A DNA stretch of 24,426 bases from a virus (taxonomy: Duplodnaviria > Heunggongvirae > Uroviricota > Caudoviricetes). The notes beneath the pieces were generated by a model that was not told the origin of the DNA, searched no databases, and saw only the letters and a program-made list of their open reading frames with translations. Position 1 is the first letter of the stretch. Every line of letters starts with the position of its first letter. Of this stretch, positions 13,536-24,426 are shown piece by piece. The position numbers and the translations under genes were made by a program. The DNA lies in IMG/VR virus record IMGVR_UViG_3300029473_000227, positions 1-24,426 of that record; one strand, 5' to 3'.

Positions 13536-14900
13536 ATGGCTACGTGGCAACAGGGTATTAATTCTGGTGGTTTTCTGGCTGGCATCGGTACGCAAAATGA
13601 GAATGCGCCAAAGGCAAGCGACATTAACGCAACGCTTGGTATGATCCGCGAAAACAATGAACTGGCTCGCTCAGGTGCAAATAACGTTGGCCTGACCGCG
13701 TTACGTGGTCTGGCTGGAGTTGCTGATATTTACAATCAGGAACAGCAACAGAAAGCTATTAGTGCGTTCAATAAGGTTCACGCTGATGCATGGGCTTCTG
13801 GTGATCCATCGGGACTATTTAAGTTTGCCCAGGAAAATCCAGCGTTTGTTGCACAGGCACAACAGGCGTTTTCCGGTCTTAATGATCAGCAACGCAACGA
13901 TATGGGCGATTTAGCCATGAGGGCTAACGTCGCTCTTTCTCAGGGACCGGAAGCCTACAGTAAATTCATTACTGACAACAAGGACAGGTTAAATCGCGTT
14001 GGTGCTAATGCTGACTGGATGATTCAGACAGGTATCCAGAATCCAGAGCAGCTATCACACATGCTGACTACTATGTCTCTCGGTGCGCTTGGACCAGAAA
14101 AGGCGTTTGCTGTTCAGGATAAGATGGTTGGTCGTGAGATTGACCGAGGCCAGCTGGCAGAGACAATCCGCAGCAATAAGGCTGGAGAGGCGCTAACAGC
14201 ACGTGGTCAGAATATCACGATGCGCGGTCAGGATTTATCGATGCAGAGAGCATCAATGAAAGGGTCGGTTGGGAATAATGAGCGTACAGTTCAGTTAGCA
14301 GATGGCAGAACTGTAACGGTAGGCGGGAAGCTTCACGGCGCTGGGGCTAATGCGTTCTACGAAGGTATCGACAACGAGGGGAATATGGTTCGCGTTCCTG
14401 CTGGCTCTATTGCCGCTCCGGCTACATCGGCAGCAAGCGCGCAGAATTACGCAATGAAGAAAGATCTTGATGCAATTTCTGGTGCATCAATTGACGATCT
14501 TGGCTTCATGACTGGCATTACAGGCTCTTCAGGTTCTCCTGCTCTTGGTGCAGATATTCGTAGCCGTGCATCTGGTGGTGATCAGAGGAAACTATACAAC
14601 GCTGCACAGCGAATCCAAGGAAAGATGCAGAATCAGGGCATTGCAGCAGCCAGAGACATGGGGGCATCCGGTATCAACACCGTTGCAGAAGCAAAGATGT
14701 ATTTTCAAGGTATGCCACAGGTTGATTTCTCAAGCCCTGAAGCACTGCAACAATCAATGCGCGACATTCAGCAATATACCGACAATTACAACCAACAATA
14801 TAACGTTAATGTTGGTAAATCTCAGCGGCAGCAATCTCAACCTACACAGGTATCACAGCCAGCAGCCAGCAGTAACTTTTCTTCACTATGGGGTGATTAA
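13536..14900 (+). CDS. ejection protein gp20-like
   Basis: 454 aa; position and size consistent with P22 gp20 (about 470 aa). Confidence 0.8.
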
Positions 14901-16765
14901 TGGCTAAAGCATGGAAAGATGTTATCGCCTCTCCACAGTATCAGGCGTTAACTGAAGAACAGAAAGCACAGGCTCAAGCGCAATATTTTGATGAGGTTGT
15001 TGCCCCTAAGGCTGGTGACAAATGGGCTGAAGCAAGAGATCAGTTTTATGCAGCATACCCTCCGCCTCAGCAGCAGAAAGAAGAACCATCATTGATGCAA
15101 CAAGCTGGCGATTGGCTCACTGGTGGTCAAAGTGCAGGGCAAATTGCAGAGCAGGCTGGTCGTGGTCTGGTAAACATACCATTTGACGTATTGCAGGGTG
15201 GCGCAAGTCTGATTAATGCAATCAGCCAGGGGCTTGGTGGCCCCAAGGTTTTGGACGATGTCTATCGTCCAGTAGATCGACCAACAGACCCTTATGCGCA
15301 AGCTGGAGAAACAATTGGCGGGTATTTAGTTCCAGGAGTTGGAACGGCAGGAAGCATGGCTATTGGATCACTGGCAGAGGCCGCAAATCAGAAAGGCGAT
15401 TTCGCACAAAATGCAGCTAAAAATGCCGGAGTTAACCTTGCCGCTCAGGGGGTTCTTTCCGCAGCAGCAAAGGGAATAGGGCGTGGAATTACTGCTGTTC
15501 GTGGCGAAATATCACCAGCAGATCAGCAATTTCTCAAGCGTGCCGCTGCGGCAGATGTACCAGTTATGACATCGGATGTAGTTCCTCCAAAAACAAAACT
15601 TGGCAATCAACTGCAGGGTTACTCAGAAGGAGTCATAGCTGGGACTGGACCAATGAGAGCCGCACAGCAGGATGCTAGAACCAAGCTTGTTAATCGCTTC
15701 ACCGAAAAATACGGCGACTACGATCCATCTGTAGTCGTTGATAGTCTAAAGTCAGGCGTTGCAAGGGAAAAATCGTTAGCCAAGTCAAAACTAAACAACC
15801 TGTCAGGAAGAATGGTTGGAAAGCCAGTTGATACAAGTGGCGCCATAAGAGCTATCGACGGAGCAGTAAACGAACTTGGGAAACTTAAAGGTGTTTCTGA
15901 CACCCAGACCATTTCTGCGCTTAATGATTATAAGAATGCCATTCAGGAGATAACAAATGGAGATGATGCCTTTGAGTTACTTGATAAGCTGAGAACTCAG
16001 TTCCGCATTGACGTAAAAGGCGATCGTACAGTTCTGCCATCAATGTCGCAAACAATGGTCGACAGGGTCTACAACTCGCTAACCAATAGCCTTAGTAAAT
16101 CTATAGCGAAAGGACTTAGCCCAAAAGATGCTTCAGCATGGAGAGCGGGAAAAGCTGATTATGCAAAAATGGCAACACATGCAACTCAAACGCGCCTTAA
16201 AAACGTTCTAAATAAAGGAGATTTAACTCCCGAGGTTGTAAATACCATTGTGTATGGACAATATGGGTCAGATATAGCTCGATTGTACGGGAAACTCGAT
16301 CAAAAAGGTAAAGACATGCTAAGGGCGGCATATATCAGCAAAATAGCTGACAAGGTAGGTGACAGCCCTCAGAAAATGATGACCGAGCTTGGCAAGCTGC
16401 AAAAACAAGCAAATGGTCAGGTGTTTAAAACTGTATTTGGTGGGAAGAACGGAAAAGAGATAGAGGGGATGTTATCTATTCTCGATGCTACCAAAAGAGC
16501 ATCTGAGGCTAATGTTGTGACGAAGACTGGCATGACACTCGCGCCTTTGGTAAGGGTTATTGGTAACCTAAAAACCGGAGGCGCGCTATTGGCTGGGGAA
16601 ACAGGGATTGGCCTTATGTCGAGGGTTTATGAAAGCCCTATGTCCAGGAATGCGCTCTTACGTCTGGCAAACACCAAAGCAGGAACGCCAGACTATGAAA
16701 GAGCATTAAGTAACGCTGCAAATGCCATCAGACCGCTGCTTGCCACTGAGGCAACACAGCAGTGA
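14900..16765 (+). CDS. ejection protein gp16-like
   Basis: 621 aa; TAATG coupling with gp20; last gene of the morphogenetic operon before the accessory cassette. Confidence 0.8.
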   Translation: MAKAWKDVIASPQYQALTEEQKAQAQAQYFDEVVAPKAGDKWAEARDQFYAAYPPPQQQKEEPSLMQQAGDWLTGGQSAGQIAEQAGRGLVNIPFDVLQGGASLINAISQGLGGPKVLDDVYRPVDRPTDPYAQAGETIGGYLVPGVGTAGSMAIGSLAEAANQKGDFAQNAAKNAGVNLAAQGVLSAAAKGIGRGITAVRGEISPADQQFLKRAAAADVPVMTSDVVPPKTKLGNQLQGYSEGVIAGTGPMRAAQQDARTKLVNRFTEKYGDYDPSVVVDSLKSGVAREKSLAKSKLNNLSGRMVGKPVDTSGAIRAIDGAVNELGKLKGVSDTQTISALNDYKNAIQEITNGDDAFELLDKLRTQFRIDVKGDRTVLPSMSQTMVDRVYNSLTNSLSKSIAKGLSPKDASAWRAGKADYAKMATHATQTRLKNVLNKGDLTPEVVNTIVYGQYGSDIARLYGKLDQKGKDMLRAAYISKIADKVGDSPQKMMTELGKLQKQANGQVFKTVFGGKNGKEIEGMLSILDATKRASEANVVTKTGMTLAPLVRVIGNLKTGGALLAGETGIGLMSRVYESPMSRNALLRLANTKAGTPDYERALSNAANAIRPLLATEATQQ

Positions 16766-16782
16766 CTAAATGCCATGGATGG

Positions 16783-16971
16783 TTATTTCCCTAGCACATG
16801 AAACAATGTTTGCTTTAATTCCACCCATACAATTATGACCACTATAGACAGACAAAAGAAACTGAATGCATTGGCATCACGATCGAAACCTTCTCCGGCA
16901 CTAAATCCGTAAAAGGTCATAAAAAATATAAAAATTGCGCACTTTGCAACGTTTACAAATTTTTTCTTCAC
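16783..16971 (-). CDS. small hydrophobic membrane protein (two predicted TM segments), moron
   Basis: 62 aa from GTG at 16971; strong AAGGAGG 5 nt upstream on the minus strand (plus-strand cctcctt at 16977-16983); AT-rich. Confidence 0.5.
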   Translation of the reverse strand: MKKKFVNVAKCAIFIFFMTFYGFSAGEGFDRDANAFSFFCLSIVVIIVWVELKQTLFHVLGK

Positions 16972-17089
16972 ACCAACCTCCTTAGTTTTGAGCAGGATAC
17001 CATGAAAAAAGTAAACATCTTTTGCCTACTTCACATTTGAATGTTTTGTCATTAGGATGTTTCCGGTTTTTTTAAATATGGAAATTGAT

Positions 17090-17509
17090 ATGAAGAGGAT
17101 TATTAGCGTCGTTGCTGGCGTTATCATGTTATCTGGGTGCGCAACTATTGTTGGTGATGAAACGCAACTTGTGCAAGTGAACAGCAATCCTTCTGGCGCG
17201 AGCTTTAAGGTAAAAGATGAATCTGGTGTGATTGTTGCGCAAGGTAAGACTCCACAAGGTGTAACACTCGCCAAGTCAGATGGTAGCTTTTTTGGCAAAA
17301 AGAGCTACCAGATCACTATGGAGAAGGATGGGTACGAACCAGTTACCCTGCCAATCAAAGCCAATGCTAATGGTTGGTATATTGGTGGGAACCTTGTGTT
17401 TGGTGGGTTAATTGGTTGGCTTGCTGTAGATCCATTTAATGGTGGGATGTATACCTTGAAGCCAAAAGAGGCAAACGCATCTCTTATACCATCAACAAAT
17501 CAAGACTAA
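17090..17509 (+). CDS. lipoprotein with PEGA-like domain and C-terminal glycine-zipper segment
   Basis: Signal peptide MKRIISVVAGVIMLSGC with lipobox; PEGA-like motifs (NSNPSGASF...GKTPQGV...EKDGYEPVTL); Gly-rich hydrophobic stretch GWYIGGNLVFGGLIGWLAV. Start ambiguous (17057, 17078 or 17090). Confidence 0.7.
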   Translation: MKRIISVVAGVIMLSGCATIVGDETQLVQVNSNPSGASFKVKDESGVIVAQGKTPQGVTLAKSDGSFFGKKSYQITMEKDGYEPVTLPIKANANGWYIGGNLVFGGLIGWLAVDPFNGGMYTLKPKEANASLIPSTNQD

Positions 17510-17515
17510 TAAATA

Positions 17516-17540
17516 GGACCCACCATCAGGTGGGTTTTTT
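17516..17540. terminator. palindromic hairpin with T-run; candidate bidirectional terminator
   Basis: Stem cccacc / ggtggg, loop atca, six T residues on the plus strand; the mnt stop codon (plus-strand tca at 17526-17528) sits in the loop. Confidence 0.65.
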
Positions 17541-17777
17541 GTACAAATCCTTCAGCGTATCAAACACCATCTTCTTAACAAGATCTGACTGCTCATCAGC
17601 GAGTCGTTCTGCATCGTCACGATATCCAGTCACAGGCGATGGTTTTGATAGAGCATCTTGGACGATTTGTAACAACTCGGAGTTCATTGATCTCCCATTC
17701 GCCTCCGCCCTGAATTTTAATTTCTCCCTTACTTCCATAGGCATACGGAAGTTAAAGTGCGGATCATCTCTAGCCAT
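17526..17777 (-). CDS. mnt: Mnt repressor (ribbon-helix-helix), immI region
   Basis: 83 aa, MARDDPHFNFRMPMEVREKLKFRAEANGRSMNSELLQIVQDAL..., matching recalled P22 Mnt; divergent from arc. Confidence 0.93.
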   Translation of the reverse strand: MARDDPHFNFRMPMEVREKLKFRAEANGRSMNSELLQIVQDALSKPSPVTGYRDDAERLADEQSDLVKKMVFDTLKDLYKKPT

Positions 17778-18029: not shown

Positions 18030-18097
18030 AGTTGAAGCCCCAACTGCGGGAACAGTCAGGGCTTCGGTTGTCAGTAAATCCGTGGAGAAAAACCAAC
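18030..18097 (-). ncRNA. sar: putative sar antisense RNA (complementary to the arc-ant intercistronic region and ant RBS)
   Basis: By analogy with P22 sar (about 68 nt). Minus-strand -10-like TATACT (plus 18104-18109) at the ant start; hairpin gaagccc...gggcttc in the intergenic region. Ends not determined. Confidence 0.35.
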
Positions 18098-19100: not shown

Positions 19101-19163
19101 ATGACAGACATTACCTACTCAACAGATGGTCAGCAACCATGTTTGCTGCCTTATAAGCTATAG
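19101..19163 (+). pseudogene. stranded ancestral tailspike 5' end (RBS + ATG ACA GAC ATT ACC = MTDIT) truncated by the HNH cassette
   Basis: GGAG at 19089-19092 then ATG 19101; the first five codons equal the P22 tailspike N-terminus MTDIT; frame terminates after 20 codons; the HNH stop codon (19111-19113) overlaps it. Confidence 0.55.
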
Positions 19164-19611
19164 CCGCTTCATCAATGGTGTTGAATCTCCCAAGGGTTAT
19201 GTTTTTACCTGAGACATTTATCTGAGCTTGCCATTGATTTCTGGCTTGACAGAAAGTTACCCCCTTGATTCCAGCATTGCTATTTCGAGGTCCGACATTT
19301 AATGCATTTACGACTCTGCTAACATCCCTAAGGTTTGAGATTGCGTTATTTCTTCTGTTTCTATCAATGTGGTCAATCTCTTGTTTGGGCCATTCGCCAT
19401 ATACATACAGCCAGGCAAGTCTATGTGCAAAATATCTTACGCCATCAATATTAATCGCGTTATATCCATAAGAAATTGTGCCAGCAACTTTCCCAACAGC
19501 ACCTCTGGCGCTTAATTTCTTTTTCCAAGTGAAAATTCCTGTTTCTTTATTGTAATCGAGAACCTCCATAAGGCGATCCCGAGTTACTACCTCGTGACGT
19601 CTCTTACTCAT
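19111..19611 (-). CDS. HNH homing endonuclease with C-terminal AP2 DNA-binding domain
   Basis: 166 aa from ATG 19611 (GGAG 8 nt upstream; the ORF track starts at TTG 19653); HNH motif [27 protein letters not shown]2-like [44 protein letters not shown]. Confidence 0.85.
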
Positions 19612-19651
19612 TATTTTCTCCGGAATGTTTATTATGCCAGAACAATTATAC
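19114..19651 (-). mobile_element. homing-endonuclease cassette inserted into the tailspike 5' coding region (approximate limits)
   Basis: Contains the HNH ORF, its RBS and a perfect minus-strand TATAAT (plus 19645-19650); flanked on the left by the ancestral tailspike start and on the right by the resumption of conserved tailspike codons (NVVVS at 19652). Confidence 0.6.
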
Positions 19652-21835
19652 AACGTTGTTGTTTCACAACCAAGTCAGTTATTTACTTTAGCTCGCTCGT
19701 TTAAAGCAAATGCTAATGGTAAAATTTATATCGGTAAAATTGACACGGACCCTGTAAACCCTGAAAACCAGATTCAGGTTTATGTGGAGAACGAAGATGG
19801 CTCTCACGTTCCTGTTTCGCAACCAATAATCATTAACGCCGCTGGTTATCCTGTATATAACGGACAGATTGCCAAATTCGTTACCGTGCAAGGCCATTCT
19901 ATGGCTGTGTACGATGCATATGGGGCGCAGCAATTCTATTTTCCTAATGTGCTGAAGTATGACCCTGATCAACTTGAACAGCGATTATCACTGCCTACAG
20001 CACCTGAGATTATAGGGGTATATCCATCAGGTAAATTAGCAGATGTATTAAATGATGTAACCCCGGAGCAATTCGGAGCTATCGGTGATGGGGTTGCTGA
20101 CGATACGCAGGCATTAAAGGCTATGTTTAAATACATCAATGACATGCCGATTTCATTCACAGACACAGCAACAGAACTTAACCCCCACCTGGATGTGGCA
20201 GCAAAACGTGTTGTTTTGCGCGGCCTGTACATGCACACAGAGACAATCTTTATTCCTTCTGGGGTGCAGATTTTCCAGCCTGGATACTCTTATTTCCGCC
20301 GAAACGTGCAGCAAGGTTTTTATTTCAACCCTCCTTCTGGGGAAGAAAACATGGCTGCTGTTGGTACTTATGTTTATTTGAAGTCCGGTAATACCTGGTA
20401 TCTTAATTCTGACCCAATGTTACTTCCACAGGGCGCACAGATAGATAATGGCACTATCCGCACAGGAGCTAGACACATTGATATTGAGAATCTTAGTATC
20501 ATTACCAAGCCTGGAACCTTGCTTGGTTTACGCTGGTTAGGTGCAGCAGGATGCACAACTCGCAATCTAAGTATTGGTGAGAACACACCAAACAGCACAG
20601 CATCAACCGCCAGAATTCCTAAGGTTGGTATGCTTCACAGTATTGCTTGGGGCAGTGTTCACACAACACCTAAGATTCTATACAAAACTCAAGGTGCTGT
20701 TTTCTACGAGCAAAACGGTGGTTCTGAGGTGAAAAACGCTTACATTGCTCGTCTTGGGCAGGATTCAACTTATTCAGAACAGGTAATTTATAAACCGGAA
20801 GATTTTGACGAAACCGGCGATGTCGCAATTACACAGTACGGGCGCAGTTCTGTGCAGTTCAGGTATTGTGTAACAGAAACATGCTCATTCATGTATGTTA
20901 ACCAGGGTGATGCAAGAAGTAACGGCGGACTTAAGGTTGACGGTTGTCACATGGAAGCCACGGATGGTAAGGCGAAACATTGTTTCTATATTATCAACTC
21001 AGACGCTGATATTCGATTAAACGGTCTGTTTATCCAGGATAGCTCCATTCCTTCCAGTAGCGTGATTTTTGTTAAAAATTGCCAGAAGGGAAGAAGTGTA
21101 ATTGATGTTCACGGATACATGATGTTCAACGGTTACCGATTGCTGGACGGGGAAAACTCTGGAGAAGTCGTAAACTTACGTAACCCAAACGGCGGTCAAT
21201 ACCAATACGGAAAGCTCGGCAAATGGTCGCTGGTTAATGAAGTTACCGGCGTTTCTCCTCAGACTTTGTACATTGATCCGGTTAACGGAGATGACGAAAA
21301 CTGGGGTTTCCACAGCGGAAAAACGCTAAAAACGTTAACTTATGCCGCCAAAATCTGCCGCATGTTTGGTGTAACCGATATCTATACTAACGCAGGTAGT
21401 ATTACATTAACTGCGGATACGGACCTGCCTTCTGCCACGATTCGTGGCGCTGGTGGGATCGTGTGTAACGCAAACGGGAGCTTAGTTGCCTCACGTAAAA
21501 CCAATGTGAACCTGACTCTAGCTGATGGGGTAACAAGCCCTGCTGGTTACCATCTCATAAAGATAAACACTACGGAGCCCGTCGTCGTAGTATCTACCTG
21601 CGATATGACCACAACAACTGCCGCGAACATATTTCTTTTCCAGTCGAACGGTAATGTTGAATGGACGCATAGGGCCGGTGGTGGTCTGGCGTGTTATCGT
21701 TATGCAGGCACTCAGTCAGCAACATATTCGGCAGTGATTGGTTTGAATATCAGGTCTACAACCAGACCAGCTATAGATTCGACACCTGTATCTGGTAATG
21801 TTGTTACTAAATACTCTTCTATTTTGAAATCTTAA
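19625..21835 (+). CDS. tailspike protein: conserved P22/HK620-type head-binding domain plus divergent beta-helix receptor-binding domain
   Basis: 736 aa; residues about 10-116 ([11 protein letters not shown]...NVLKYDPDQ) match the P22/HK620 tailspike N-terminal domain from memory; the rest is unlike P22. Start may be ATG 19634, which restores P22 spacing before NVVVS; neither ATG has a good SD. Confidence 0.88.
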
Positions 21836-22024: not shown

Positions 22025-23182
22025 TCACTCCACCTTCTCATCAAGCCAGTCCGCCCACCACTGCATCATTTCTCTGCGCTTATCGAGATACTGAGCATGG
22101 TTGTAAATTCCGCGCACAGATCCGCCGTTGGCATGTGCCAGTTGCACTTCAATAGCGTCAGCAGGCCATTCGTGCTCGTTCATAACCGTGCTGAATTCAT
22201 GCCTGAATCCGTGACCGCTTTCCAGACCCTCATAGCCGATTTGTTTGATCACAAGCAATACCGCATTCTCGCAGATTGGCTTCTTCTTATCGTTGCGCCC
22301 GGCAAAAACAAACTCTGATACTGGTTTAGTGATGGAGCTTAGCGTAGTGAGAAGTTCAACCACCTGGTCTGACATAGGAACCACATGAATTTTGCGTCCC
22401 TTCATCACACTGGCGTCGATGGTGATAATCCTGTTTTCAAAATCGACGTTCTTCCATTGCATGGAACGAAGCTCTTTCGTTCTTAGGGCTGTGTAGCGCA
22501 AAACTTTAGTCGCAATGAGCGATACGATACTTCCTGAAAATGTTGCCAGTGCTTTATTGAATGCCGGGATCTGGTCTGCAGGAAGAAACGGGAAGTTTTT
22601 CTTGCGGTATCCCTTCATGGCGTCAGCAAGGTCAGGTGCCGGGTTATATTTAGCCCTACCAGTGACAATAGCGTAACGGAAAACCTCGCCGCATCTTCTG
22701 CGGGCTTTATTTGCTCGCTCCATTGCACCGCGATCTTCAAATCTGCGGATTACTTCCAGCAGTTGCATCGGCTCAATCTCCTGAATTTCAAGGCCGCCGA
22801 TGATAGGTAAAATGTCGTCATCAAACATTTTTGCAAGTTCAGTCGCATACCCTACTGACCATACTTGCTTCTTGTGCTCGTACCATTCCTTGTAAATCGC
22901 ACTAAAGGAATTGTTGTTAGACGAAGCCTTTTTCGCCTTTACCGGATCGATGCCAACCGAGATGTCTTTCCTCGCAGTCCATGCCTTATCCCTTGCCTCC
23001 TGCAAAGTCATTAGCGGATATTTTCCTACGGTCAGGATTTTCTCCTTACCGTCAATCTTGTAGCGAAGCTGCCATACCTTTTTCCCGGATACAGGGACAT
23101 AAAGGTACAGGCCATTACCATCGAGAAGGCGGTATGGTTTTTCTTTCGGCTTTGCTGCTTCAATCTGCTTAACGGTGAGCAT
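22025..23182 (-). CDS. intS: tyrosine integrase (P4-type, IntS-like)
   Basis: 385 aa from ATG 23182 (MLTVKQIEAAKPKEKPYRLLDGNGLYLYV...); C-terminal catalytic region with ...HGFRHEF...LAHANGGSVRGIYNHAQY; adjacent to tRNA-Arg. The ORF-track GTG start at 23218 is considered less likely. Confidence 0.9.
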   Translation of the reverse strand: MLTVKQIEAAKPKEKPYRLLDGNGLYLYVPVSGKKVWQLRYKIDGKEKILTVGKYPLMTLQEARDKAWTARKDISVGIDPVKAKKASSNNNSFSAIYKEWYEHKKQVWSVGYATELAKMFDDDILPIIGGLEIQEIEPMQLLEVIRRFEDRGAMERANKARRRCGEVFRYAIVTGRAKYNPAPDLADAMKGYRKKNFPFLPADQIPAFNKALATFSGSIVSLIATKVLRYTALRTKELRSMQWKNVDFENRIITIDASVMKGRKIHVVPMSDQVVELLTTLSSITKPVSEFVFAGRNDKKKPICENAVLLVIKQIGYEGLESGHGFRHEFSTVMNEHEWPADAIEVQLAHANGGSVRGIYNHAQYLDKRREMMQWWADWLDEKVE

Positions 23183-23343
23183 GGGTAAAAATCCGGTGGG
23201 TAAAATTATTTTATCCACTTTTTACCCGTCACGGAGTGCGGCTGTCAACGATCTGAAGCGAACCATGACGAACTGTGAATCTACGGAAGGCTTGATATTC
23301 AGGGGATTTTGCGGACTAGTACGGATGGGAGAGAACTGATAAA

Positions 23344-23418
23344 TGGTGTCCCCTGCAGGAATCGAACCTGCAATTAGCCCTTAGGAGGGGCTCGTTATAT
23401 CCATTTAACTAAGAGGAC
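23344..23418 (-). tRNA. argW: tRNA-Arg (anticodon CCU), argW-like; prophage attachment site
   Basis: Reverse complement reads GTCCTCTTAGTTAAATGGATATAACGAGCCCCTCCTAAGGGCTAATTGCAGGTTCGATTCCTGCAGGGGACACCA (75 nt, CCA end, T-loop GGTTCGATTCC), matching E. coli argW as recalled. Confidence 0.9.
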
Positions 23419-23493
23419 AATGCGGCATGAGTATACCCGCTAATGGAGTGCGGGGTAAGTACGCTGCCGCTCGATTGCTTAAACCCTCGCCAT

Positions 23494-24426
23494 TTATGCC
23501 GGGTTTTTATAATTTTTCTTAATGTTTTCCGCACGTTCTGCTTTTTGGCGTGCTTCTGCTTTACGCTTATTGCTCATGTCGTTACGAATCTGTGCATGAC
23601 TCATTAACGCGAAGATAAAGGTGCCGCCGCAGATGTTCCCCGCTAAAGTAGGTAGTGCGAAGGGCCAGATGAAATCGCTCCAGTGCAGCGTACCGTTAAA
23701 CACCAGATAGAGGATTTCAACAGAACCGACCACGATATGGGTGGTGTCACCCAGGGCAATAAGCCAGGTCATCAATATAATCACCACAATCTTTGCCGCA
23801 CCCGCTGCAGGAAACATCCAAACCATAGTGGCGATCAGCCAGCCGGAAATGATCGCGTTGGCAAACATCTCGCTGGGGGTGTTCTTCATCACATCCATGC
23901 CGATTTTGACAAATGCATCGCGAGTTTCTTCATTGAAGATAGGCATATATTCAAATGCCCACGCCGCAATACCTGTCCCGAGAATATTACCCAGCAGCAC
24001 GACGCCCCATAACCGTATAAGTAAGCCGACGTTGCTCATTGTCGGTTTTTGCATGACGGGTAGTACCGCAGTCACGGTATTTTCGGTAAATAATTGCTGG
24101 CGGGCCATAATGACGATAATAAAACCAAAGGTATAACCGAGATTCTCCAGCAAGAAGCTGCCCGGCACACCTTCCAGTTCGACATGAAATATCCCTTTTG
24201 CCAGTAACGAAGCGCCCATCGACAGACCCGCCGCAATGGCTGACCACAGTAGCGCCATTGCGTCGCGTTCCAGCTCTTTTTCACCATCCTGGCGGATATG
24301 CTCATGAATTGCCATCGCCCGGGAGGGGAGTCGGTCTTCATCTATTTCTATTTTTTTGCCGCGCTCTTTTTCTTCGCTCTCAACTTCAATTTCGTCGCTG
24401 TGTTGATCAATTTTGTCGTTGTCCAT
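23494..24426 (-). CDS. yfdC: inner-membrane formate/nitrite-transporter-family protein (YfdC-like), host chromosome
   Basis: 310 aa polytopic membrane protein; in E. coli K-12, yfdC flanks argW and intS; complete ORF with ATG at the window end. Confidence 0.75.
   Translation of the reverse strand: MDNDKIDQHSDEIEVESEEKERGKKIEIDEDRLPSRAMAIHEHIRQDGEKELERDAMALLWSAIAAGLSMGASLLAKGIFHVELEGVPGSFLLENLGYTFGFIIVIMARQQLFTENTVTAVLPVMQKPTMSNVGLLIRLWGVVLLGNILGTGIAAWAFEYMPIFNEETRDAFVKIGMDVMKNTPSEMFANAIISGWLIATMVWMFPAAGAAKIVVIILMTWLIALGDTTHIVVGSVEILYLVFNGTLHWSDFIWPFALPTLAGNICGGTFIFALMSHAQIRNDMSNKRKAEARQKAERAENIKKNYKNPA

What the first reader, a model, noticed from the sequence alone, without database searches (positions are those of the whole stretch)
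16783..17509. Divergent two-gene AT-rich cassette in the sieA position: small membrane protein plus PEGA-like glycine-zipper lipoprotein
Between gp16 and mnt, where P22 carries sieA, there are two divergently oriented genes. One is a 62-aa two-TM hydrophobic protein with a strong AAGGAGG RBS and GTG start. The other is a 140-aa lipoprotein with a PEGA-like beta domain and a Gly-rich membrane-interacting C-terminus, followed by a strong terminator. Both are AT-rich. Envelope-localised moron proteins here are prime candidates for superinfection exclusion or receptor masking.
Basis: partly seen in the sequence, partly recalled or inferred. Interest (0 to 1): 0.6.

Follow-up and report, generated by a model that had tools for sequence, protein, structure and literature searches.

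The report
Two independent prophage envelope-protein morons
Between the DNA-injection genes and the immunity genes of a P22-like prophage sit two real but uncharacterised genes, a tiny inner-membrane protein and an outer-membrane-type lipoprotein; they are separate mobile add-on genes rather than a pair, and are reasonable but untested candidates for blocking other phages.

Summary
The window is a P22-like prophage at a tRNA-Arg site. Between gene 16 and mnt lie a 62-aa two-TM ORF (16783-16971, minus; GTG start, AAGGAGG 5 nt upstream) and a 139-aa lipoprotein gene (17090-17509, plus; lipobox LSGC) ending in a strong intrinsic terminator.

Both genes are real and already catalogued without function: phrog_21338, and phrog_6823, which is phage epsilon34 gene 15.

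They are not a cassette. In 5426 complete E. coli genomes the small gene occurs in 89, the lipoprotein in about 123, and both together in 9. A 34-bp block (16969-17002) is the mosaic junction.

The small gene is a conserved island. It always lies 17 nt from the gene 16 stop and is 88-89% nt identical across E. coli, Salmonella and Serratia prophages, while gene 16 diverges. dN/dS is 0.14-0.34. It is mostly unannotated.

The lipoprotein has a PEGA-like beta-sandwich and a Gly/Trp-rich hydrophobic helix-kink-helix. It is a promiscuous moron with its own terminator everywhere examined, found at five prophage insertion sites, including the position recalled for the HK97 gp15 exclusion moron, and in non-phage chromosomal DNA.

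It shows no homology to SieA, Cor or any PADLOC defence model, or, from recall only, to Llp. Superinfection exclusion is plausible but untested. Ordinary kind, moderately interesting candidates.

The parts
16783..16971 (-). 62-aa small membrane protein gene (phrog_21338). GTG start, two predicted TM helices, invariant loop GEGF(D/N)RD. Convergent with gene 16, with 17 nt between the stop codons.
   Evidence: Purifying selection (dN/dS 0.14-0.34), no indels, exact protein on at least 1000 contigs. 88-89% nt identity across three genera while the adjacent gp16 3' end is 70% over 102 nt or undetectable.
16969..17002 (-). 34-bp junction block shared by three different mosaics. It carries the start codon (16969-16971), the AAGGAGG Shine-Dalgarno (16977-16983) and a candidate extended -10, TGGTATCCT (16994-17002).
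   Evidence: alignment. epsilon34 shares sequence only rightward from 16969 and uses the block for its gp14. phiv205-1 shares sequence only leftward up to 17002. Promoter function is inferred, not shown.
17030..17058 (+). Candidate sigma-70 promoter of the lipoprotein moron (TTCACA, 17 nt, TAGGAT).
   Evidence: 9 of 12 matches. The TAGGATGTTTCCG(G/A)TTTTTT stretch recurs upstream of the homologue in a lambda-like prophage, L022. Activity not shown.
17090..17509 (+). 139-aa lipoprotein gene (phrog_6823, epsilon34 gene 15 family). Signal peptide and lipobox at residues 1-17, PEGA-like beta-sandwich 25-93, Gly/Trp-rich hydrophobic helix-kink-helix 95-112, conserved beta-hairpin 121-131.
17516..17541 (.). 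Intrinsic terminator (9-bp stem, 4-nt loop, T-run). It ends the lipoprotein transcript. On the other strand it overlaps the last codons and stop of mnt, so it is probably bidirectional.
   Evidence: annotated as a terminator in epsilon34. Every homologue examined has its own, different terminator.

Best explanation
The interval holds two unrelated, independently acquired morons of the hypervariable 'ant moron' region of P22-like phages.

(1) The small gene encodes a 62-aa protein with an N-in/C-in two-helix hairpin and an invariant acidic periplasmic loop. It is predicted to sit in the inner membrane. It is transcribed antisense to the late operon, like sieA and mnt, from the shared 34-bp start block, so it is probably made in the lysogen. 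It fills the slot next to gene 16 that holds an inner-membrane protein in every compared phage: SieA in P22 and an HkcB-like protein in epsilon34. The most likely role is a prophage-expressed inner-membrane factor that interferes with the injection conduit of incoming P22-like phages.

(2) The lipoprotein is a self-contained promoter-gene-terminator moron. The product has Ala at +2, so it is predicted to be Lol-sorted to the inner leaflet of the outer membrane. Almost no tether separates the lipidated Cys from the beta-sandwich. A hydrophobic Gly/Trp helix-kink-helix projects from the sandwich. The domain is therefore probably clamped flat on the membrane by two anchors. The most likely role is to modify an outer-membrane component from the periplasmic side, as the Cor and Llp lipoproteins do with FhuA, giving exclusion or another lysogenic-conversion phenotype that does not depend on the carrier phage's type.

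Shown: gene reality, anatomy, independence of the two genes, moron structure, mobility. Inferred: localisation, expression in the lysogen, and any exclusion function.
For: Reality and conservation.

Independence of the two genes: and 10 (together in 9 genomes).

Small gene position: it is fixed 17 nt from the gp16 stop with varying partners. These are a 161-aa lipoprotein in Salmonella, a Rap1a-like periplasmic protein in Serratia, and none here or in phiv205-1. A decayed Serratia-type prophage remnant still keeps it.

The slot next to gene 16 holds inner-membrane proteins in P22 (SieA) and epsilon34 (gp14). SieA is experimentally an inner-membrane injection blocker whose escape mutations map to gp16 and gp20 (PMC10883804).

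Lipoprotein homologues at 54-78% identity sit at other prophage sites:
- between tail chaperone T and the tape-measure gene in HK97-like E. coli prophages; from my own recall, unverified because the HK97 paper could not be retrieved, this is the site of the HK97 gp15 exclusion moron;
- upstream of the tape-measure gene in Proteus;
- between I and J in lambda-like prophages;
- after Q in Actinobacillus.

Each copy has its own terminator, and GC is about 10 points below the flanks in two contexts.

Structure: pLDDT 87.3, sandwich above 90, hydrophobic helix-kink-helix 65-79, C-terminal hairpin 96.

The epsilon34 paper calls this region a moron in rapid flux and gene 15 unknown (PMC2629481).
Against: There is no functional data for either family. 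Neither protein matches any PADLOC model.

There is no homology to SieA. The only similarity to Cor is in the signal peptide.

The lipoprotein family is very large, with more than 5500 clusters at 50% identity. It includes stand-alone chromosomal genes in non-phage neighbourhoods. Its basic role is therefore probably a general envelope function rather than anti-phage.

Carriage by both podophage and siphophage prophages argues against a target specific to one injection machine.

The promoters are only consensus matches. No minus-strand sigma-70 consensus site was found inside the 16972-17089 intergenic region.

The hydrophobic segment's topology is a medium-confidence prediction.
Confidence: 0.45

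Rival explanations
1. The lipoprotein is a host-fitness, lysogenic-conversion factor unrelated to phage exclusion. Examples would be outer-membrane stabilisation, stress or serum resistance in the manner of lambda Bor or chromosomal Gly-rich lipoproteins. Phages simply ferry a bacterial envelope gene.
For: The family is huge and mostly outside phages. Chromosomal stand-alone copies have no phage neighbours. The C-terminal membrane motif is nearly invariant across distant bacteria. Carriage by unrelated phage types fits a phage-independent benefit. No defence-system profile matches.
Against: The enterobacterial subclade sampled at 54-80% identity sits mostly in prophages, though a 67%-identical Kosakonia copy is chromosomal. 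From recall, one of those prophage sites is the known HK97 gp15 exclusion moron site. No stress-regulon or conserved operon context was found.
Confidence: 0.3
2. The two divergent genes form one functional unit: a membrane protein plus a lipoprotein partner acting together, as the first reader's 'cassette' implies.
For: They are adjacent and divergently arranged around a 118-bp AT-rich region. In Salmonella and Serratia the small gene also lies next to an exported or lipoprotein gene.
Against: Only 9 of 89 small-gene genomes and 9 of about 123 lipoprotein genomes carry both. epsilon34, Gally and 720R6 have the lipoprotein without the small gene. phiv205-1, JEP4 and UPF_BP1 have the reverse. 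The partners of the small gene are mutually unrelated. The lipoprotein also occurs alone in siphophage prophages and chromosomes.
Confidence: 0.07
3. The 62-aa protein is a membrane-damaging peptide, either a toxin of a type I-like module or a holin/abortive-infection effector, rather than an injection blocker.
For: It is small, very hydrophobic and Phe-rich, with two TM segments and charged ends. Late-operon read-through would supply a natural antisense RNA (inference from gene orientation). It is retained in a decayed prophage remnant.
Against: No similarity to any toxin or holin family in Pfam, NCBIfam, PHROGs or PADLOC. Its strong Shine-Dalgarno and constitutive-looking arrangement are unlike tightly repressed type I toxins. 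Its most conserved part is the short loop, which suggests a specific contact.
Confidence: 0.1
4. The small ORF is a chance reading frame in AT-rich spacer DNA. This would explain why NCBI's pipeline and phage depositors usually leave it unannotated.
For: It is unannotated in all four phage records and in most RefSeq hits. It has a GTG start and low GC.
Against: The frame, length and start are preserved across three genera, with dN/dS 0.14-0.34 and 15 of 30 variable sites at codon position 3. The start switches between GTG and ATG, and a Shine-Dalgarno is present in all versions. The gene is far better conserved than the flanking gene 16.
Confidence: 0.03

Closest known systems
Salmonella phage epsilon34 gene 15 (phrog_6823) and the P22-like 'ant moron' (Villafane et al. 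2008, PMC2629481)
   Same: The lipoprotein gene, its upstream region and its terminator are 98% identical in DNA to epsilon34. The location is the same, between gene 16 and mnt. The paper already describes the region as a moron in rapid flux.
   Different: epsilon34 carries an HkcB-like gene (gp14, a TM segment plus coiled coil) where this prophage has the 62-aa gene. The swap occurs exactly at the shared 34-bp start block. No function is known for gene 15.
P22 SieA (Pfam PF26849), an inner-membrane superinfection-exclusion protein (PMC10883804)
   Same: Same slot and orientation as the small gene: convergent with gene 16, about 20 nt away, antisense to the late operon. Both are predicted or shown to be inner-membrane proteins.
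   Different: SieA is 162-164 aa with three TM segments and the motif FxRYPxEAxxFNK. The 62-aa protein shows no homology: no PF26849 hit, BLASTP E 0.29, hhalign probability 0.1%. This prophage has no sieA.
HK97 gp15 moron (Cumby et al. 2012; recalled from knowledge and cited in PMC10883804; the paper itself could not be retrieved)
   Same: Homologues of the lipoprotein sit between the tail chaperone T gene and the tape-measure gene of HK97-like E. coli prophages. From memory, this is the insertion site of the gp15 exclusion moron.
   Different: From memory, HK97 gp15 is an inner-membrane protein, not a lipoprotein. Sequence homology was not tested here. The resemblance is positional only.
Cor (phi80/N15/HK022) and Llp (T5), outer-membrane lipoproteins that block FhuA-dependent phages
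   Same: Both are small phage-encoded lipoproteins predicted to go to the outer membrane. This is the working model for how the lipoprotein could act.
   Different: The only similarity to Cor is the signal peptide (residues 1-20 or 1-30), well below the NCBIfam cut-off. Cor is not a PEGA sandwich and lacks the hydrophobic hairpin. No target is known here.
Pfam PEGA domain (PF08308) and transthyretin/CnaB-like beta-sandwiches
   Different: This protein scores below the PEGA gathering threshold. The fold carries no specific functional implication.

Membership tests
Bacterial lipoprotein (signal peptidase II substrate) | Positively charged n-region, hydrophobic h-region, and lipobox [LVI][ASTVI][GAS]C | tested here: met
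   MKR-IISVVAGVIM-LSG-C17. C17 is invariant in close homologues and at least 90% conserved in distant ones. Lipidation itself was not tested.
Outer-membrane-sorted lipoprotein (Lol pathway, E. coli +2 rule) | No Asp at position +2 after the lipidated Cys | tested here: met
   The mature N-terminus is C-A-T-I-V-G, and A18 is invariant or nearly so. Localisation is an inference from the rule, not a measurement.
Pfam PEGA (PF08308) | Profile score at or above the gathering threshold (20.8 bits) | tested here: inconclusive
   17.5 bits, E 0.0039, for this protein. 9 of 32 distant relatives match, best 5e-9. The fold is consistent.
Glycine-zipper membrane families (Pfam Gly-zipper_Omp, Gly-zipper_YMGG, Gly-zipper_OmpA, Rick_17kDa_Anti) | Profile match, or a repeated GxxxGxxxG run in a hydrophobic helix | tested here: not met
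   No such family at E <= 1. The segment GWYIGGNLVFGGLIGWLAV has isolated GxxxG pairs only.
SieA (Pfam PF26849) | Profile match; three TM segments; motif FxRYPxEAxxFNK | tested here: not met
   Neither protein hits PF26849. For the small protein against P22 SieA, BLASTP E is 0.29. Profile-profile probability is 0.1%.
Cor exclusion lipoprotein (NF047972 / phrog_1119) | Full-length profile match above the cut-off (31 bits) | tested here: not met
   13 bits, residues 1-30 only. The PHROG match covers residues 1-20 only. This is signal-peptide similarity.
Moron (Hendrix/Juhala definition) | Gene present in some and absent from other otherwise collinear phages | tested here: met
   P22 has sieA and orf59a here. 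epsilon34 has gp14 and gp15. phiv205-1 has the small gene plus others. Other insertion sites are shown.
Moron (Hendrix/Juhala definition) | Own terminator | tested here: met
   Lipoprotein gene; all eight loci examined have a stem-loop plus T-run. The small gene has no separate terminator in the 17 nt before gene 16.
Moron (Hendrix/Juhala definition) | Own promoter active in the lysogen | not testable with these tools
   Only consensus-level sites were found: TTCACA-17-TAGGAT on the plus strand, and a candidate extended -10 TGGTATCCT on the minus strand.
PHROG families 6823 and 21338 | Full-length profile match | tested here: met
   E 4e-85 over 1-139 of 139 positions, and E 4e-45 over 1-62 of 62 positions. 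Both families are annotated 'unknown function'.
Known anti-phage defence systems (PADLOC-DB v2) | Match to any defence-protein profile | tested here: not met
   0 families at E <= 1 for both proteins.

The most novel reading that the evidence does not exclude
The epsilon34-gp15-type lipoprotein is a new class of exclusion or defence factor that does not depend on phage type. It would act at the inner face of the outer membrane, be spread as a self-contained moron among podophage and siphophage prophages of Enterobacterales and Pasteurellaceae, and have been recruited from a very large bacterial lipoprotein family of unknown function. Alternatively or additionally, the unannotated 62-aa protein is a minimal, SieA-unrelated blocker of the gp7/gp20/gp16 injection conduit that travels with gene 16.
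Probability: 0.2. Interest if true: 0.65.

Novelty: new member of a known kind. Interest (0 to 1): 0.38.

Why it matters
If either protein proves to exclude phages, it would add a new, sequence-unrelated family to the short list of envelope-level superinfection-exclusion proteins of enterobacterial prophages. The lipoprotein case would also give a first functional handle on a lipoprotein family with thousands of members.

The 62-aa gene is missing from most genome annotations, yet it is among the best conserved elements of this part of P22-like prophages. It is a cheap and specific target for the assays already set up for SieA.

As it stands, the finding mainly shows an ordinary, well-known hypervariable moron region carrying two catalogued genes of unknown function.

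Tried and rejected
1. SieA homology of the small protein. A weak BLASTP alignment to the SieA C-terminal motif looked suggestive. Profile-profile comparison gave probability 0.1%, so it was rejected.

2. The 161-aa Salmonella partner as SieA. No similarity was found. It is an unrelated lipoprotein.

3. Cor, Llp, TssJ or IglE relationship of the lipoprotein. Matches cover only the signal peptide or are sub-threshold.

5. NCBIfam 'invert_tail' and LEPBI_I2678 leads. The weak matches only show that the same module exists in uncharacterised Leptospira-type proteins.

6. Guilt by association in chromosomal contexts. The neighbourhoods are unrelated to one another.

7. Literature. There is no paper on the family. 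The HK97 gp15 paper could not be retrieved.

8. Rfam. Only sar RNA was found in the region; no RNA element lies in 16972-17089.

Full report
**Context**

The window is a P22-like (Lederbergvirus-type) prophage. Its genes run in this order:
- gp7, gp20 and gp16 ejection-protein genes;
- the two genes in question;
- mnt, arc, sar RNA and ant;
- an HNH/AP2 endonuclease-like ORF, then the tailspike gene;
- an integrase, tRNA-Arg(CCT), and a host formate/nitrite-transporter-family gene.

These assignments rest. The closest DNA matches are E. coli chromosomes (98% over 901 bp) and phage epsilon34.

**The observation**

Both ORFs are present as described.

The small ORF runs from 16971 down to 16783 on the minus strand. 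It starts with GTG, preceded by AAGGAGG with a 5-nt spacer. It encodes 62 residues with two hydrophobic stretches.

The lipoprotein gene starts at the ATG at 17090, judged from the alignment of homologues. It encodes 139 residues with a canonical lipobox (LSG|C17).

The lipoprotein gene is followed by a 9-bp-stem terminator: dG -15 kcal/mol, z = -3, with none of 200 shuffles as stable. On the other strand this hairpin overlaps the end of mnt.

GC content is 0.349 for the small gene and 0.322 for the spacer, the lowest 1% of the window. The lipoprotein gene, at 0.438, is only mildly below the window mean of 0.479.

**The small gene is real**

It matches phrog_21338 end to end (E 4e-45). The exact protein is recorded on at least 1000 contigs.

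Versions in Salmonella and Serratia P22-like prophages keep the 62-codon frame without indels at 79-82% aa identity. Pairwise dN/dS is 0.14-0.34. The start is GTG or ATG, and a Shine-Dalgarno is present in each. Half of the variable sites are at codon position 3.

In all eight loci fetched (L004-L011) its stop lies 17 nt from the stop of the gene 16 homologue, convergent with it.

It is a conserved island. It is 88-89% nt identical across the three genera. The adjacent 600 nt of gene 16 are 70% identical over only 102 nt, or not alignable at all. The gp16 proteins are 53% identical (Salmonella), or 35% identical over the N-terminal third only (Serratia).

It is nevertheless unannotated in all four phage records that contain it. 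It is also unannotated in six of the eight sampled RefSeq E. coli hits.

**The two genes are not a cassette**

Phage-level distribution:
- epsilon34, Gally and vB_EcoP-720R6 have the lipoprotein gene but not the small gene.
- phiv205-1, JEP4 and UPF_BP1 have the small gene but not the lipoprotein.

Among 5426 complete E. coli genomes, the small gene is in 89 and the lipoprotein gene in 123-126. The joint arrangement is in 9.

An alignment of the three mosaics shows a 34-bp block (16969-17002) common to all. It holds the start codon, the Shine-Dalgarno and a possible extended -10 (TGGTATCCT). Unrelated sequence lies on one side or the other. In epsilon34 the same block initiates gp14, an HkcB-like protein with an N-terminal TM segment and a coiled coil.

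The co-oriented upstream neighbour of the small gene is different in each lineage:
- a 161-aa lipoprotein unrelated to SieA in Salmonella;
- a Rap1a-like periplasmic protein in Serratia;
- nothing here or in phiv205-1.

**The lipoprotein family**

The protein matches phrog_6823 (E 4e-85). It is 98.6% identical to epsilon34 gp15.

[quoted passage not shown] It calls the whole gene 16 to gene 9 interval the 'ant moron', a region 'in a state of rapid flux' (PMC2629481).

The family is large:
- 676 hits in the 90%-clustered database, all named hypothetical, lipoprotein or PEGA-domain;
- 5570 representatives at 50% identity with E <= 0.001, of which 2088 have E <= 1e-10.

The conserved core is C-A-T-I-V-G directly after the signal peptide, a variable beta domain, and a nearly invariant motif NGWYxxGNxxFGGLIGWLxVDPxxGxMYxLxP.

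AlphaFold2 with 100 sequences gives pLDDT 87.3:
- a beta-sandwich, residues 25-93, pLDDT 91-98;
- a helix-kink-helix, residues 95-104 and 106-112, pLDDT 65-79;

Pfam PEGA is sub-threshold for this protein (17.5 against 20.8 bits). It is significant for 9 of 32 distant relatives. No glycine-zipper family matches.

**Where the lipoprotein gene travels**

Homologues at 54-78% identity lie in the following places:

| Context | Position |
|---|---|
| HK97-like E. coli prophages (for example strain ED1a) | between tail chaperone T and the tape-measure gene |
| Proteus siphophage prophages | just upstream of the tape-measure gene |
| Lambda-like prophages | between the I and J homologues |
| Actinobacillus prophage | after the Q antiterminator gene |
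| Kosakonia and other bacteria | non-phage chromosomal neighbourhoods with no conserved partners |

From recall, the first of these sites is that of the HK97 gp15 exclusion moron. The source paper was not retrievable.

In all eight loci examined the gene is followed by its own, different intrinsic terminator. In two contexts its GC is about 10 points below the flanks. The -10-like TAGGATGTTTCCG stretch recurs upstream in the lambda-like context. This is the classical moron anatomy.

**Mechanism (inference)**

For the lipoprotein:
- Ala at +2 predicts Lol sorting to the outer membrane.
- The near absence of a tether, together with the hydrophobic Trp-flanked helix-kink-helix next to the lipidated N-terminus, suggests a domain held flat on the inner leaflet by two anchors.
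- The variable sandwich surface could contact a target, while the membrane motif stays invariant.
- The gene is co-oriented with the late operon, so it would also be transcribed late in lytic growth.
- The closest working analogy is Cor or Llp acting on an outer-membrane receptor from the periplasmic side. There is no homology: the matches are to the signal peptide only.

For the 62-aa protein:
- The positive-inside rule gives N-in/C-in topology with the invariant GEGF(D/N)RD loop in the periplasm.
- Its slot, orientation and membrane location parallel SieA.
- SieA is experimentally an inner-membrane blocker of the gp20/gp16 conduit (PMC10883804).
- Homology to SieA is excluded.

No PADLOC defence profile matches either protein. 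I put about 0.9 on the anatomy, about 0.85 on independence of the two genes, and about 0.35 on an anti-phage role for at least one of them.

**Verdict**

The finding is accurate as an observation. The 'cassette', 'glycine zipper' and 'both AT-rich' details need correcting.

The genes are already catalogued (PHROGs; epsilon34 gene 15), lie in a known moron hot spot, and have no known function.

What is added here:
- evidence that the small, mostly unannotated gene is real and unusually conserved next to gene 16;
- the 34-bp junction;
- the demonstration that the lipoprotein is a widely travelling moron.

Interest is moderate-low until a phenotype is shown.

Noticed in passing
window 19111-19653 (-): An HNH endonuclease plus AP2-domain ORF (homing-endonuclease-like) lies between ant and the tailspike gene. 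It is on the opposite strand and overlaps the tailspike start (19625) by about 29 nt.
   Followed up: no
window 18030-18097 (-): sar antisense RNA (Rfam RF00262, 95.6 bits). Together with mnt, arc and ant it makes a complete P22-type immunity I region.
   Followed up: yes
window 22025-24426: The integrase (22025-23218, minus) directly follows the tailspike gene with no gtrABC. Next come tRNA-Arg(CCT) at 23344-23418 and a host formate/nitrite-transporter-family gene. This is the prophage/host junction at an argW-type site.
   Followed up: partly
L008 3361-5196 (Logan SRR27027366 contig): A decayed P22-like prophage remnant next to tonB still keeps mnt, a Rap1a-like periplasmic protein gene, the 62-aa gene and a truncated gene 16 homologue. 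It is seen on many contigs, which hints that these morons are retained after the phage has decayed.
   Followed up: no
L004-L007 3483-3968 (Salmonella P22-like prophages): A 161-aa lipoprotein (MKKSLLIIPLLLAGC...) with no Pfam hit and no similarity to SieA lies directly upstream of, and co-oriented with, the 62-aa gene. It is another uncharacterised envelope moron in the sieA region.
   Followed up: partly
window 14900-16765 (+): The gp16 homologue (621 aa) gets no Pfam hit at E <= 0.001. Yet it is 53% identical to a Salmonella gp16 that carries PF26808. The Serratia counterpart (785 aa) is alignable only over the N-terminal 270 or so residues. The C-terminal parts of gp16, where SieA-escape mutations map in P22, are highly diverse.
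   Followed up: partly
window 17526-17541: The last codons and the stop of mnt lie inside the terminator hairpin that ends the lipoprotein gene. One stem-loop therefore probably terminates both convergent transcripts.
   Followed up: partly
PQ480021.1 37258-37626 (Caulobacter phage DMCA): A distant homologue of the lipoprotein (30% identity over 95% of its length) is present in a Caulobacter phage. Phage carriage of this family therefore extends beyond Gammaproteobacteria.
   Followed up: no
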